DNA of 64,000 nt from Candidatus Poribacteria bacterium (GTDB lineage: Bacteria; Poribacteria; WGA-4E; PCPOR2b), in assembly GCA_965116925.1 (NCBI GenBank), contig OZ220744.1:4992001-5056000 (forward strand), written 5' to 3'. Below the pieces are notes generated by a model. It ran no database searches, was not told the origin of the DNA, and saw nothing but the letters and a program-made list of their open reading frames with translations. Below, piece after piece: positions 2,067-29,225 of this stretch. Position 1 is the stretch's first letter. Each line of letters opens with the position of its first letter. The translations under genes were made by a program, and so were the position numbers.

Positions 2067-2691
2067 GAAGCCGTACATAGAACTTCTTGACAAGCCGATC
2101 CTTTCGCATACGATCGGCGTATTTGATCAAAGTACTGTTGTCGATGCTATCTTTGTGATTGTTGATGAAATGGATTTTGATGCTTGCCGATCTGCTGTCA
2201 TCGAACCGTACGACTTCCAAAAGGTTGCTGGGCTAGTCCCCGGTGGCAAAACGCGCCAAGATTCTGTCTTTAACGGCTTGAAAGTGCTGCCGGAGGATAC
2301 GGATTTCGTTGTCGTGCATGATGGAGTTCGTCCTTTTGTGACCGATGAAGTGATTTTTACCTGTCTCGAAGCGGCAGCAGATTGGGGCGCCGCAGTCGCC
2401 GCAGTCCTTGTCAAAGATACCATCAAAATCACCGATAAGGACGGATTTGTCGTCGAGACACCGGATCGGAGCCAACTTTGGGCGGTACAGACACCGCAGG
2501 TATTTCGGAGGGATGTATTGATCGAAGCCCACCGACATGCCCAGCGCAAACAGATCCAGTTGACTGATGACGCAGCGCTAGTCGAGCAGCTGGGGCTTAA
2601 AGTAAAGTGTGTCATGGGTAGCTATGGCAATCTGAAGATCACGACGCCGGAAGATCTGATTATTGCTGAAGCGCTGATGAGTGAGGGTTGA
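1996..2691 (+). CDS. ispD: 2-C-methyl-D-erythritol 4-phosphate cytidylyltransferase
   Basis: IPAAGRGSRMG, GGKTRQDSV, VHDGVRP, QTPQVF, TDDA, NLKITTPEDL; start 1996 or 1981; TGA stop lies inside the IS end. Confidence 0.96.
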   Translation: MNQRTCVLIPAAGRGSRMGHHRTRKPYIELLDKPILSHTIGVFDQSTVVDAIFVIVDEMDFDACRSAVIEPYDFQKVAGLVPGGKTRQDSVFNGLKVLPEDTDFVVVHDGVRPFVTDEVIFTCLEAAADWGAAVAAVLVKDTIKITDKDGFVVETPDRSQLWAVQTPQVFRRDVLIEAHRHAQRKQIQLTDDAALVEQLGLKVKCVMGSYGNLKITTPEDLIIAEALMSEG

Positions 2692-2825
2692 CATACTCCC
2701 AAACCTAAAGGCTTGGGCTTCTCACCCGTTCCGTTAGGTGTGGAATTGCGCTATCAACAAGGACAGCTATCCGAAGATAGTCTTATGTCCTCTCCTTCGG
2801 GGGTAGATGCCCCTACCCTAAAGAT
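2688..2825 (-). ncRNA. Probable TnpB omega/reRNA scaffold of element 1 (5' limit approximate)
   Basis: Stacked hairpins over the tnpB 3' end and right end (GGGTAG/CTACCC, AGGACA/TGTCCT enclosing CTATC-TTCG-GATAG, terminal hairpin); position as known for IS605 TnpB. Confidence 0.6.
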
Positions 2826-3890
2826 ATTCATTGCAGCGTTACGGTCTCTGTCATGCACTGTGCCACAATCGTTGCATTGCCATTGTCTATCACGCAGATT
2901 CAACGTTTCATTGGTAGTGCCACAAGTTGAACAAGTTTTACTGGAGGGATACCACTTGTCTATGAACTTGATTTTAACGCCTTTTCTCTTGGCGATATAC
3001 ACCAGCTTCTTGACGAAATCGGCAAAGCCTAAGTCAGACACTTTACGTCCCCAAAGGGATTTCATGCCTTGTAGATTCAAGTCCTCAAGCCGTATCTCGT
3101 CGTATATGTCAGTCAGTTCATGGGCTAACTTCCAGTGGAAATCCTCACGTTGGCGTTCAATCTTGCGGTGCTTCCGTGCCAAGTCAAGCCGTGCACGTTC
3201 ACGATTGTTTGATTTCTGTTTAGTCCGTGAATGTTTACGATTGGCACGTTTGATAGCATTGATACTACGTTTGAAAAACTGTGGTGAGTCTATATCATGT
3301 CCATTATGACCGGTGAGATACCGTTTGAGACCGAAATCGAAGCCTGCGATTTTACCCGTCATGGCTCGATTCAAGTCAGGTTCTACATGGTCAGTTAAGA
3401 CACAGATATAGATATCTCCAACTTTATCCCGTTTGATAGTGCAGCGTTTCGGATTGCCAAACACATCACGGGATTTGAAATAGGAGTAGATACGTTTTCC
3501 TATCTTGATGCGATTGCCCGGCAGCAGTTGCCAACCTGCCTGAAGCAATGTGAAGGATTTATACTTGCGACGGGGCTTGAAACGAGGTCTGCCCCATCTC
3601 TTGCCTGAAGCACGCGCTGCAAACATGGCACGGTAGCCTTTGTCAATCCGTGCTGCTACGTCTTGTATCGCTTGACTGGGGAGTTGATTCCAATGGGCAA
3701 ATCGGTGGGTTCGCTTCAGTTTGGAGATATGGTTTATCAACCTGAACTTGCTGATATATTTGCCATAGATAGCGTAGTAGCGACGCTGAAGGGCAACACA
3801 GTGATTCCAGACGTGAGCATGACCATCTATCGTCTTATGCAACTCACGATTGCCGTGATTGGAATACAACTTGAACTTATAAGTTTTCAT
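2754..3890 (-). CDS. tnpB: RNA-guided endonuclease TnpB
   Basis: KTYKFKLY N-terminus, RuvC residues GFDFG / LEDL / RDRNAA, CxxC...CxxC zinc finger. Confidence 0.95.
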   Translation of the reverse strand: MKTYKFKLYSNHGNRELHKTIDGHAHVWNHCVALQRRYYAIYGKYISKFRLINHISKLKRTHRFAHWNQLPSQAIQDVAARIDKGYRAMFAARASGKRWGRPRFKPRRKYKSFTLLQAGWQLLPGNRIKIGKRIYSYFKSRDVFGNPKRCTIKRDKVGDIYICVLTDHVEPDLNRAMTGKIAGFDFGLKRYLTGHNGHDIDSPQFFKRSINAIKRANRKHSRTKQKSNNRERARLDLARKHRKIERQREDFHWKLAHELTDIYDEIRLEDLNLQGMKSLWGRKVSDLGFADFVKKLVYIAKRKGVKIKFIDKWYPSSKTCSTCGTTNETLNLRDRQWQCNDCGTVHDRDRNAAMNIFRVGASTPEGEDIRLSSDSCPC

Positions 3891-3897
3891 CGGAGAC

Positions 3898-3979
3898 TAG
3901 CTTTCTGGCTTTCATTTCCTGTGTGAAGGAATGTGGGAAACACCACCGGGCGGTGGCGTCATACCTTCCCACGAAAGCC
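3898..3979 (-). ncRNA. Conserved structured 5' leader of tnpB, copy 1
   Basis: GGCTTTC...GAAAGCCAGAAAGCTA frame with internal helices that covary with 27696-27780. Confidence 0.65.
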
Positions 3980-3985
3980 GAGACA

Positions 3986-4014
3986 AGTATACCACTTTTG
4001 ACCTACAAAATCAA
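3986..4014 (-). promoter_or_regulatory. Sigma70-type promoter for tnpB of element 1
   Basis: TTGATT-17 nt-TATACT with TG extension, 6 nt before the leader. Confidence 0.7.
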
Positions 4015-4094
4015 TGAGAAATCACGCTAAAGCGTGTGTATCCCAAATCTAAAGATTGGGGTTTTACACCTAAAGGATTTTTTGATAAACTACC

Positions 4095-4568
4095 ATGCGT
4101 GTAGGAATTGGTTACGATGTTCACCGATTGGGGGAAAATCGTAAATTGATACTCGGCGGGGTCACAATCCCATACGAGTTGGGGTTGATTGGACACTCCG
4201 ATGCAGATGTACTGACCCATGCCATTTGTGATGCAATACTAGGGGCAGCAGGGCTGGGTGATATTGGTCAACATTTTCCCGATACGGATGCGGCATATGC
4301 CGGAATTGATAGCTTAATCTTGCTCGGCAGAGTGAGGACATTGATTTCTGCAGATTACGCTATTGAGAACGTGGACAGCACAGTGATCATGCAACGCCCA
4401 AAATTGGCGGCTTATATTCCTTCGATGCGCCAACGCCTTGCCGAGACACTAGGGATTCCAAGCAATCGGGTAAATGTCAAGGCGACAACTTCGGAAAGAC
4501 TCGGTTTCATTGGCGAAGGAAAGGCCGCTGCCGCTGAAGCTGTTGTTTGTCTTCGTGAATTAAGGTAG
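4095..4568 (+). CDS. ispF: 2-C-methyl-D-erythritol 2,4-cyclodiphosphate synthase
   Basis: [36 protein letters not shown]. Confidence 0.97.
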
Positions 4569-27480: not shown

Positions 27481-27500
27481 AACGCTGTCCTCCTATCAAT

Positions 27501-27570
27501 ATGCCTTGTAGTTGCCTGATTTATCAGGCGTTGTTTTTCCTAATGCCTTGTAGTTGCCTGATTTATCAGG
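27501..27570 (+). repeat. Two tandem GTAG-type REP copies (42-nt period)
   Basis: ATGCCTTGTAGTTGCCTGATTTATCAGG at 27501 and 27543. Confidence 0.85.
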
Positions 27571-27660
27571 TCAGGATTTTTGATGATAACTTGTTTCATC
27601 AACTTTTCGCAGTGGAGACCCCGTTCTTTAGAGCGGGGAGGAAACTGCGCTCCTTTTTCG

Positions 27661-27689
27661 TTGAAAAGTTGTGTGAAATATGGTACAGT
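27661..27689 (+). promoter_or_regulatory. Sigma70-type promoter for tnpB of element 2
   Basis: TTGAAA-17 nt-TACAGT with TG extension, 6 nt before the leader. Confidence 0.65.
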
Positions 27690-27695
27690 TCTTAT

Positions 27696-27780
27696 GGCTT
27701 TCGTAGGGGATTTCTACCATCCCGAACCCTTCGGGATGTCCCCTACACCTCGTAGAAAAGGAATGAAAGCCAGAAAGCTA
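27696..27780 (+). ncRNA. Conserved structured 5' leader of tnpB, copy 2
   Basis: Same architecture as 3898-3979 with different but complementary helix sequences. Confidence 0.65.
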
Positions 27781-27786
27781 ACCCCT

Positions 27787-29013
27787 ATGAAAAAGAGTTA
27801 TGAATATCGCGCCTATCCTACGACGAAACAGCGACATACTTTTTTGGTTTGGCTTGCCTTGTTGCGCAATCTCTACAATCAAGCGTTAGCGTGGCGGATA
27901 GAGGCTTACCAGCAAAATAACGATTCTGTCAAATGGACGACCCAAGCCAACGCCTTACCTGACTTGAAAGCAGCCTCCAAGGCTTATGCAGGACTTCACG
28001 CGGATGTTCTCCAAGATGCGATGCGCCGTTTGGATAAAGCGTACAAAGCATTCTTCCGCCGTGCCAAGAACGGGGCGGCACCGGGCTTCCCCCGCTTCAA
28101 AGGCGAAGGGCGATACCGGTCAATGACCTTTAGCCACCTATCCAAGCATCTGGTCCGGAGTGTACATCGTAAGTTTGCCAAAGTCGTTGTTCCGAAAATA
28201 GGACACCTCAAGATCCGTTATCACCGCCCCTTAGCCGATGGCAACATCAAGAATCTGACGGTCATCAAGCGAGCCAGCGGTTGGTATGTAACTATCTGCG
28301 TCGAAGTGCCAGATCCTATAGAAGTCCCTGTCCACACAACGATCGGCGTAGACGTGGGACTTAACTCGTTTGCCGTAGATTCGGATGGCGAACATATCCC
28401 AAACCCCCGCCATTATCGTCAGTCTGAAAAACGCCTTGGTAAACATCAACGCGTATTGTCTCGCCGCAAAAAGGGGAGCCGCCGCCGGGCAAAACAACGT
28501 GAGATTGTCGCCCGTTGCCATGAACGGATAGCGAATCAGCGCAAGGATTTCCAGTTCAAGGCAGCCCATCGTATCATTCAACGGTGCGACGAGGTTGCTG
28601 TAGAGAATCTGACCATCACCAATATGTTGAAGAACCACTACCTCGCCAAGAGTATATCTGACGCGGGCTGGGGTAGCTTTCGATTGAAACTGCAAAGCAA
28701 GGCTGCAAGTGCCGGCAAGCAGTTCACCAAAGTGAAGCCTCACCATACCAGTCAGAAATGCTCCGGTTGCAATGAAGTTGTGCCTAAACAGTTGTCGGAT
28801 CGTCTCCATGATTGTCCCCATTGTGGGTTGGTCCTCAATAGAGACCATAACGCTGCGATAAATATCAAAAAGGCTGCTGTAGCCTTGCGTGAAGGTGCGT
28901 CGGTTGCAAACGACCCCGAAATCCCCTGTCCGGGGACAGAAGCGCGAAACTTTGTAAGACCCGTTGGACGGACGTTTCAAACAAGCACCGTCCCTTCAGG
29001 GCGGGGTAACTGA
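27787..29013 (+). CDS. tnpB: RNA-guided endonuclease TnpB (alternative start 27763)
   Basis: SYEYRAYPT, GFPRFK, GVDVG / VENL / RDHNAA RuvC triad, zinc finger; frame runs through the right end. Confidence 0.95.
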   Translation: MKKSYEYRAYPTTKQRHTFLVWLALLRNLYNQALAWRIEAYQQNNDSVKWTTQANALPDLKAASKAYAGLHADVLQDAMRRLDKAYKAFFRRAKNGAAPGFPRFKGEGRYRSMTFSHLSKHLVRSVHRKFAKVVVPKIGHLKIRYHRPLADGNIKNLTVIKRASGWYVTICVEVPDPIEVPVHTTIGVDVGLNSFAVDSDGEHIPNPRHYRQSEKRLGKHQRVLSRRKKGSRRRAKQREIVARCHERIANQRKDFQFKAAHRIIQRCDEVAVENLTITNMLKNHYLAKSISDAGWGSFRLKLQSKAASAGKQFTKVKPHHTSQKCSGCNEVVPKQLSDRLHDCPHCGLVLNRDHNAAINIKKAAVALREGASVANDPEIPCPGTEARNFVRPVGRTFQTSTVPSGRGN

Positions 29014-29063
29014 CCATGAATTCCTTTCCGGCGAATCAGAAAATTGCTGTAAACGGCTCCGAC

Positions 29064-29149
29064 GCCCGATAAATCGGGCAACTACAGGTCACGATGCCTG
29101 ATGAATCAGGCAACTACAAATTCCGATGCCCGATAAATCGGGCAACAAC
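29064..29149 (-). repeat. Three GTAG-type REP copies (32-nt period), inverted relative to 27501-27570
   Basis: GCCYGATRAATCRGGCAACWAC at 29064, 29096 and 29128. Confidence 0.85.
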
Positions 29150-29225
29150 AATATAAATTTTCGCGTTGCTGTCGAATTTAGTGTGGTAGATTCAGCATCG
29201 CCGCGTTTGAGATGTTGTCACACTG

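What the first reader, a model, noticed from the sequence alone, without database searches (positions are those of the whole stretch)
27661..27789. Covarying structured RNA leader shared by two divergent tnpB elements (second copy 3891-4014, minus strand)
Seen: the two TnpB proteins, end hairpins and target motifs differ, yet each gene is preceded by a TTGA..-17 nt-TGnTA...T promoter and, 6 nt later, an 82-85 nt leader of identical architecture. P1 is GGCUUUC/GAAAGCC in both. P2 is GUGGGAA/UUCCCAC versus GUAGGGGA/UCCCCUAC. P3 is CGCCACCG/CGGUGGUG versus CAUCCCGAA/UUCGGGAUG. P4 is UUCCU/AGGAA versus CCU/AGG. The bulge between P2 and P3 is complementary to the P4 loop (UUUCUAC/GUAGAAA; GUAUGA/UCACAC with one mismatch), giving a kissing pseudoknot. 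An invariant AUGAAAGCCAGAAAGCUA follows, and its second GAAAGCU offers an alternative partner for P1. The MKARKL it encodes is in frame with tnpB in element 2 but out of frame in element 1, so the conservation appears to act on the RNA. Known: the TnpB guide RNA comes from the right (3') end; I recognise no named 5' motif like this. Inference: a translational switch or autoregulatory TnpB-binding site, or a second RNA component of this TnpB group.
Basis: partly seen in the sequence, partly recalled or inferred. Interest (0 to 1): 0.8.

Follow-up and report, generated by a model that had tools for sequence, protein, structure and literature searches.

The report
Two-state folded leader of tnpB transposons
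The flagged stretch is a real, intricately folded RNA at the start of a transposon nuclease message in sponge-symbiont Poribacteria; its first bases can pair in two ways, one of which hides the ribosome landing site, so it most likely switches nuclease production, yet it also persists in copies that encode no protein, and its trigger is unknown.

Summary
Confirmed, and larger than reported. Both leaders fold as described, and every helix, including the bulge-loop kiss, covaries (34- and 58-sequence alignments). A covariance model finds the RNA in 105 of 150 Poribacteria genomes. It was not found beside 80 viral tnpB genes and has no Rfam match.

The 5' strand has two covarying, near-isoenergetic partners. 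The distal one is the Shine-Dalgarno site in this family and contains the AUG in a second family, which supports a translational switch.

TnpB autoregulation looks unlikely: the leader sits on 8 TnpB families and its identity does not follow TnpB identity.

The fold is also kept with compensatory changes in ORF-less guide-RNA-only elements and is 91% conserved between families behind sigma-54-type promoters. This suggests a second role (5' protection or guide-precursor handling) or a host-wide circuit.

No start site, switching or trigger is shown. The scan noted this RNA family before on other DNA of this genome (e1-7797088).

The parts
27595..27599 (+). TAM of element 2 (TTCAT); the element runs 27600-29014
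   Evidence: a contig that joins 27599 to 29015 (empty site) and loose ends at 29014/29015
27617..27640 (+). left-end subterminal hairpin of element 2
   Evidence: sequence; shared by copies of the element
27661..27689 (+). sigma-70-type promoter with extended -10 (predicted); +1 inferred at about 27696
   Evidence: same spacing in homologues
27696..27702 (+). P1 5' strand (switching strand)
27703..27746 (+). P2 (27703-10/27739-46), bulge = kissing strand (27711-17), P3 hairpin (27718-38)
27748..27761 (+). P4 hairpin; its loop (27752-58) pairs with the bulge
27765..27771 (+). proximal P1 partner (P1a; inferred ON state)
27772..27779 (+). AGAAAG Shine-Dalgarno site and distal P1 partner (P1b, 27773-79; inferred OFF state)
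27787..29013 (+). tnpB of element 2, 408 aa; its 3' end overlaps the presumed omegaRNA and the right end
   Evidence: Pfam OrfB_IS605, Cas12f1-like_TNB, HTH_OrfB_IS605
4085..4089 (-). TAM of element 1 (TTTAT); the element runs 4084 to about 2688
   Evidence: shared left ends in copies; right end inferred from the TCAA after the end hairpin
3986..4014 (-). sigma-70-type promoter of element 1 (predicted)
3899..3979 (-). leader of element 1: P1 5' 3979-73, P2 3972-65/3940-33, bulge 3964-59, P3 3958-41, P4 3931-16, P1a 3913-07, P1b 3905-3899
2754..3890 (-). tnpB of element 1, 378 aa
   Evidence: Pfam

Best explanation
A portable promoter-plus-leader cassette of Poribacteria IS200/IS605 tnpB elements that acts in cis as a two-state translational switch. 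SHOWN by sequence comparison: a three-way junction (P1, P2/P3, P4) clamped by a 5-7 bp bulge-loop kiss, whose 5' strand has two mutually exclusive partners, the distal one lying on the ribosome-binding site or the AUG. INFERRED: transcription starts at P1; the proximal helix forms first and leaves the initiation site open; strand exchange to the distal partner hides it and limits TnpB synthesis, while the same transcript carries the guide-RNA precursor at its 3' end. INFERRED, weaker: the balance is set by a host-level cue that reads the fold (a host RNA-binding protein, or folding kinetics against ribosome loading) and not by the cognate TnpB; the paired, compact 5' end also shields the transcript from RNase J, which would explain its retention in ORF-less copies.
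For: Structure: 91% of cells paired, 27 of 32 pairs with two-sided changes, slid controls 35-48%; kiss 93.5% paired in 58 sequences with a model that held no pseudoknot; 47 of 52 distinct bulge/loop pairs give >=5 bp against 10% of cross pairs. Two registers: distal helix 95% paired, 4 of 7 pairs two-sided; a second register of >=6 bp in 63 of 66 against 17.4 expected; RNAalifold chose the distal register unprompted; median ddG -0.1 kcal/mol, 39 of 52 within 3. Initiation site: the 16S gene ends ...CACCTCCTTTCT; AGAAAG occurs 93 vs 5 times in the SD window of 2142 long ORFs and GAAAG peaks 9-10 nt before ATG; in the tnpB leaders it lies 8-10 nt before ATG in 30 of 46; in 22 family-f2 leaders the distal helix covers the start codon in 15 and ends 8-10 nt before it in 7. 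Host-level reading: 8 TnpB families; 90% leader identity at 22% TnpB identity and 62% at 85%. RNase J is present.
Against: No TSS, probing or reporter data; the RNA runs are contigs only. The fold, kiss included, is kept in ORF-less elements whose start codon has decayed and in sigma-54 copies, which translational control of tnpB cannot explain. In six f2 leaders the distal strand is not SD-like. In family f1 the two partners are an 8-nt tandem repeat, so slippage could keep them alike. Five of 77 elements with intact tnpB have lost the bulge precisely and three elements of the element-2 clade lack promoter and leader, so it is dispensable. For the two window copies the proximal state is favoured by 2.8 kcal/mol, pseudoknot energy excluded. 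CsrA and Hfq were not found, so no obvious host factor is at hand.
Confidence: 0.55

Rival explanations
1. The main job is RNA-level: a 5'-end stabiliser or folding/processing module for the tnpB-omegaRNA precursor; RBS masking is secondary.
For: P1 begins at the predicted +1. Twenty of 21 ORF-less elements found by a downstream hairpin pattern carry the leader in front of an omegaRNA-like region and right end, and the kiss is 98% paired with 3 of 7 pairs two-sided in the 17 aligned. The sigma-54 copies keep 91% core identity between families against 55-59% in their promoter region. RNase J is present.
Against: It does not explain why the distal partner tracks the SD or AUG in two different arrangements. 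The variation in ORF-less elements could be inherited from several ORF-bearing parents that I did not find. In 16 sigma-54 copies the fold lies 62-82 nt behind the -24 box, behind another hairpin.
Confidence: 0.2
2. TnpB binds the leader of its own mRNA and stabilises the OFF register (autoregulation).
For: 25 of 30 tnpB-like loci of the genome carry it; TnpB binds structured RNA and processes its own mRNA (PMC10278001, abstract and passages).
Against: Near-identical leaders serve TnpBs of 22-31% identity; copies lie away from any tnpB; no fixed-place match of the kiss key elsewhere in the element (top bin 3 of 21 keys).
Confidence: 0.08
3. A metabolite/ion riboswitch or a small ribozyme.
For: Three-way junction with a kissing contact and an expression platform; invariant G-C at the base of P2 (58 of 58) and a 98% conserved C in the P3 loop.
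Against: Only one unpaired base is >=95% conserved and the junction linkers are 0, 1 and 2-3 nt; no Rfam riboswitch or ribozyme matches even at E <= 10 or E <= 1; the hammerhead core is absent from the sequence; no metabolic gene context.
Confidence: 0.08
4. The kiss forms between two transcripts, so that the 6-7 nt key is an identity code and the switch senses copy number.
For: The key is the most variable helix, with 43 distinct bulges among 52 pairs; elements are multi-copy; P4 joins P2 through a single base, which may strain an intramolecular kiss (inference).
Against: Free variation is also expected of a purely structural helix; P2 length is held at 7-9 bp, as an intramolecular fit would need; unrelated elements share keys.
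Confidence: 0.06
5. A single-stranded-DNA structure for transposition, or a neutral passenger of the left end.
For: IS200/IS605 elements move as ssDNA (established knowledge); precise bulge deletions look like palindrome correction in DNA.
Against: Elements without it exist at three loci; it is tied to the promoter and the start codon, not to the end; G-U exceeds A-C 83 to 38; two-sided changes run through all helices.
Confidence: 0.03

Closest known systems
IS200 tnpA 5'UTR structure with art200 and Hfq (PMC4513863; abstract and section list seen)
   Same: IS200/IS605-family element whose 5'UTR structure represses translation initiation
   Different: That controls TnpA, uses an antisense RNA and Hfq; here the gene is tnpB, Hfq was not found, and the RNA is a pseudoknotted junction with two registers
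TnpB omegaRNA and mRNA cis-regulation (PMC10278001; abstract and passages seen)
   Same: Same transcript; RNA-level control of TnpB
   Different: The omegaRNA comes from the 3' end and the inhibitory region lies inside the coding sequence; this RNA is at the 5' end and has no guide
PATEs that encode omegaRNAs (PMC10055086; passages seen)
   Same: ORF-less IS605 derivatives that carry an omegaRNA used in trans, as in L199-L219
   Different: The passages seen describe no structured 5' leader; here the ORF-less elements keep the pseudoknotted leader plus one or two AACCAA-loop hairpins
IS605-orfB-I RNA (Rfam RF03065; named in PMC11451735 passages)
   Same: Structured RNA associated by name with IS605 orfB (tnpB)
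   Different: 214-position model; no match in this genome at E <= 1 (the control rang nowhere) nor in the window scans
Translational riboswitch expression platforms and kissing three-way junctions (SAM-III, purine riboswitch, hammerhead, pistol; recalled)
   Same: Alternative pairing over the SD; junction closed by a loop contact; pistol also pairs a hairpin loop with a bulge
   Different: No Rfam match, no conserved ligand or catalytic core, different strand order; switching is by a duplicated P1 strand

Membership tests
Any Rfam 15 family (riboswitches, ribozymes, IS605-orfB-I, HEARO, HgcC) | match at the gathering score | tested here: not met
   0 in the window; only chance-level hits at E <= 10; none on the motif in 12 other loci; RF03065 none
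TnpB omegaRNA | scaffold at the right end followed by a guide from flanking DNA | tested here: not met
   lies 96-180 nt inside the left end and is followed by the tnpB AUG
Translation-controlling leader (RBS sequestration) | covarying helix over the SD or AUG | tested here: met
Translation-controlling leader (RBS sequestration) | alternative, energetically close conformation that frees the site | tested here: met
   (nearest-neighbour energies without the pseudoknot)
Translation-controlling leader (RBS sequestration) | transcribed from a start upstream of the helix | tested here: inconclusive
   promoter predicted; RNA-library contigs cover the leader but cannot show starts
Translation-controlling leader (RBS sequestration) | measured change of translation | not testable with these tools
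   needs reporters or toeprinting
Riboswitch | conserved ligand-binding nucleotides and a coherent gene context | tested here: not met
   one unpaired base >=95% conserved; contexts are tnpB, ORF-less elements and unrelated genes
Riboswitch | ligand-dependent structural change | not testable with these tools
   needs in-line probing
Small self-cleaving ribozyme | conserved catalytic core of a known class | tested here: not met
   no Rfam match; junction bases vary
Small self-cleaving ribozyme | self-cleavage | not testable with these tools
   raw reads were not available
Autoregulatory protein-binding leader | confined to, and evolving with, the regulated gene family | tested here: not met
Leader-peptide attenuator | conserved uORF and terminator | tested here: not met
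   upstream AUG in frame 11, out of frame 28, absent 25 of 64; no terminator-like site after the leader
IS200/IS605 tnpB-only element (the carrier) | tnpB, subterminal hairpins, TAM, precise empty site | tested here: met

The most novel reading that the evidence does not exclude
A phylum-wide RNA device, passed between unrelated TnpB elements, that uses a kissing clamp and strand exchange between two copies of one helix strand to choose between 'make nuclease' and 'supply guide RNA'. It is read by a host factor or by other copies of the RNA, is kept by guide-only parasites that replace the ribosome site with protein-binding-like hairpins, and has been domesticated behind sigma-54 promoters. 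This would be a dedicated regulatory layer for RNA-guided homing that couples selfish nucleases to host physiology.
Probability: 0.25. Interest if true: 0.88.

Novelty: new variant of a known kind. Interest (0 to 1): 0.68.

Why it matters
How cells and elements limit TnpB, a DNA-cutting nuclease whose mRNA is also its guide precursor, is largely open; the work I read deals with the 3' end and the coding region. This RNA gives a concrete handle: a 90-nt module with dozens of natural compensatory variants, natural bulge-deletion mutants, leaderless sister elements and ORF-less carriers, so each hypothesis has ready-made test pairs. A switch built on a duplicated helix strand with a freely re-codable 6-7 bp kiss could also serve as an orthogonal riboregulator scaffold.

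Tried and rejected
Rfam at gathering and E-value thresholds: nothing on the motif; the HgcC hit (E 0.0037) is on the left-end hairpin. Outside Poribacteria: 12 pattern matches in viral contigs lay in unrelated sequence without the fold; 1 metagenome match and 80 viral tnpB loci gave no model hit at E <= 5; the genome-collection scan with the element-1 TnpB returned only Poribacteria, so other cellular phyla were not screened with the model. uORF MKARKL: frame not conserved. Helicase-gene copy as a conserved host regulator: absent before 4 of 4 orthologues. Partner for the kiss key elsewhere in the element: none (the first attempt picked the wrong strands and is disregarded). CsrA-type decoy for the GGA-rich sigma-54 copies: CsrA not found; Hfq not found. 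RNA runs: only contigs; they cover the element including the leader in 4 runs of 2 studies but cannot show start, strand or level; one low-depth contig that skips P2/P3 (27700-27750) was not interpreted. The two-state energies over-extended P1 and were replaced; the pseudoknot columns were mis-set and replaced. Literature: searches found no description of this RNA; I recall a 'Poribacteria-1' motif from Weinberg 2017 (PMC5737381), whose main text does not name it and whose supplement could not be read, so a description there or in similar supplements is not excluded.

Full report
1. Observation. The window is G000:C1:4992001-5056000; relatives of the element-1 TnpB come from records titled Candidatus Poribacteria. 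Both elements are tnpB-only IS200/IS605 elements: 27600-29014 (+; TAM TTCAT; 408-aa TnpB; an empty-site contig joins 27599 to 29015) and 4084 to about 2688 (-; TAM TTTAT; 378 aa). The proteins are about 30% identical. Both leaders fold into P1-P4 with z = -4.8 and -4.05. Rfam gives nothing on the motif.

2. Family and structure. Of 30 tnpB-like loci in the genome, 25 carry promoter plus leader; three intact elements of the element-2 clade (59-67% identical TnpB) lack both, and two are 5'-truncated. In 34 distinct leaders 91.1% of cells pair, 27 of 32 pairs show two-sided changes, none of 500 shuffles reaches this and slid controls give 35-48%. The kiss is the most variable helix: 93.5% paired and 126 two-sided cells in 58 sequences aligned to a model without the pseudoknot (the count of pairs with a two-sided change does not beat the shuffles there, 194 of 500). 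Of 52 distinct bulge/loop combinations 47 give at least 5 bp, against 10% of 2618 cross pairs. The sequences are related, so these are not independent events, and R-scape was not available. Primary conservation is thin: the G-C pair at the base of P2 is invariant, and a C in the P3 loop (98%) is the only unpaired base at 95% or more. The second model matches 105 of 150 Poribacteria genomes: f1 23/25, f2 76/99, f3 5/10 and 0 of 15 in the other families; it was trained on f1-f3. It matches none of 80 viral tnpB loci.

3. Two registers on the initiation site. The P1 5' strand has a proximal and a distal partner. The distal helix is 95% paired with 4 of 7 pairs two-sided, a second register of 6 bp or more exists in 63 of 66 leaders against 17.4 expected, and RNAalifold chose the distal one. 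In the 52 of 58 leaders with two registers the median energy gap is -0.1 kcal/mol and 39 lie within 3 kcal/mol; both window copies favour the proximal state by 2.8 (no pseudoknot energy). The 16S gene ends ...CACCTCCTTTCT. AGAAAG is found 93 times in the SD window of 2142 long ORFs and 5 times in a control window, and GAAAG peaks 9-10 nt before ATG; in the leaders it lies 8-10 nt before ATG in 30 of 46. In family f2 P1 has entirely different letters. All 22 leaders examined have two registers; the distal helix covers the start codon in 15 (one of them, L076, by a less convincing helix) and ends 8-10 nt before it in 7, and in most of the 15 an AAAGG-type SD lies between the two copies. That arrangement is not a tandem repeat, so slippage alone cannot keep it. 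Against a simple reading: in six of the seven the distal strand is not SD-like, and some leaders have lost one partner. The MKARKL frame is not conserved: in frame 11, out of frame 28, no AUG 25 of 64.

4. Not tied to one TnpB. Among 26 ORF-bearing elements in 8 TnpB families (50% single linkage), leader identity reaches 90% at 22% TnpB identity and falls to 62% at 85%. The MYTT/MYIT TnpB family carries an f1-type leader in f1 genomes and an f2-type leader in f2 genomes. The cassette therefore follows the host lineage and is exchanged between elements, which fits a host-read signal better than a TnpB-specific site. No fixed-place partner of the kiss key was found elsewhere in the element.

5. 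Copies without tnpB. (a) ORF-less elements: a pattern for a hairpin behind the leader gave 21 places in 8 of 27 genomes. None has a TnpB match, 20 end in a right-end-like TCAA within 184-236 nt, and 20 carry the leader, one with P4 deleted. The region behind it matches the 3' end of the tnpB at G000:3016079, the presumed omegaRNA. In 17 aligned copies (L199, L207, L212, L213 left out: no leader or a different length class) the kiss is 98.3% paired with 3 of 7 pairs two-sided, while the start-codon relic varies. The distal strand still follows P1 but is closed in a hairpin with an AACCAA loop. I did not show that these form one clade, so inheritance from several parents is possible. ORF-less elements that encode omegaRNAs are known as PATEs (PMC10055086, passages). 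(b) Sigma-54-type copies: 16 loci have a TGGCAC box 62-82 nt upstream; core identity is 0.90 against 0.65-0.69 for the promoter region, and 0.91 against 0.55-0.59 between families f1 and f3. Palindromic enhancer-like sites lie further up. Their tails resemble a decayed tnpB start, some with a 5-codon mini-ORF, and they precede unrelated genes: proteins with signal-peptide-like N-termini, a PAS sigma-54 activator, a Cas_NE0113 protein, a DEAD helicase. (c) Sporadic orphans, for example before a UvrD-like gene, not conserved in 4 orthologues, and before a GIY-YIG gene.

6. Mechanism. Shown by comparison: the fold, the kiss, two registers and their position on the initiation site. Inferred: +1 at P1; co-transcriptional formation of the proximal helix gives an open state; strand exchange to the distal partner closes it; the kiss or a factor that binds the clamped fold sets the balance. 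Retention in ORF-less and sigma-54 copies needs a second property, most simply 5' protection (RNase J is present) or binding of a host factor (CsrA and Hfq not found). The leader is dispensable for an element: five of 77 loci with intact tnpB lack the bulge precisely, and leaderless elements exist. RNA-library contigs cover the element and its leader in 4 runs of 2 studies but cannot show starts or levels. Odds: translational switch 0.55; stabiliser or precursor module 0.2; TnpB autoregulation 0.08; riboswitch or ribozyme 0.08; intermolecular kissing 0.06; ssDNA or neutral 0.03.

7. Known systems and novelty. It works like the IS200 tnpA 5'UTR (PMC4513863, abstract and section list) and like riboswitch expression platforms (recalled), but it is a member of no Rfam family tested and is not an omegaRNA. 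TnpB RNA-level control in the paper I read concerns the 3' end and the coding region (PMC10278001, abstract and passages). A review of OMEGA systems gave no passage on such a leader for the terms tried (PMC13565253), and an archaeal atlas proposes repression at a tnpB 5' end by SmAP1 and an antisense RNA (10.1101/2022.08.31.505529, passages). Searches found no description. The Weinberg 2017 supplement was unreadable and may bear on novelty. The scan noted the same family on another copy in this genome (e1-7797088); my reading was stated before I saw it, and it is not independent evidence. Verdict: a real, apparently undescribed RNA family; a new variant of a known kind (cis-regulatory leader); interest 0.68.

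Noticed in passing
window 2688-2691 and 4085-4095: Element 1 sits in reverse between ispD and ispF; the ispD stop codon TGA is supplied by the element's right-end TCAA on the other strand, and the TAM lies 5 nt before the ispF ATG.
   Followed up: partly
L199-L219 (for example L208:1399-1760): A family of ORF-less leader+omegaRNA elements with one or two hairpins whose loop holds AACCAA, placed where SD and AUG would be; possibly a protein-binding or processing signal.
   Followed up: partly
L067-L072, L074, L176-L196; G000:322172, 338630, 3117419, 3232565: A repeated ~400-bp module with palindromic enhancer-like sites and a sigma-54 box drives the leader and precedes secreted-type proteins, sigma-54 activators and CRISPR-associated genes.
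   Followed up: partly
L085, L111, L120, L132, L159, L066: Precise loss of the kissing bulge that perfects the P2-P3 hairpin, in several leader subtypes; tnpB is intact in the five tnpB elements. Natural mutants for tests.
   Followed up: partly
G000:1037390(-), 4090995(+), 5977551(+); L135, L146: tnpB elements without internal promoter or leader, with an AT-rich stretch and no clear SD before the ATG.
   Followed up: partly
G000:863250-863640(+), 4656950-4657400(-), 3968950-3969620(-): Other ORF-less IS605 derivatives with the same kind of promoter but different or diverged internal structured RNAs.
   Followed up: no
G000 whole genome: Only five weak Y1 transposase matches (best 67.5 bits) for about 30 tnpB elements; the mobilising TnpA is not evident.
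   Followed up: no
L098, L108; G000:322172, 3117419, 3232565: Extra hairpins inserted between the two P1 partners or between P4 and the first partner, with the rest of the fold kept.
   Followed up: no
window 27500-27575 and 29060-29150: Short palindromic repeats (REP-like) flank element 2; contigs show neighbouring rearrangements across them.
   Followed up: no
L186:980-1462(-): A leader copy lies 40 nt before a GIY-YIG/NUMOD3 endonuclease gene.
   Followed up: partly
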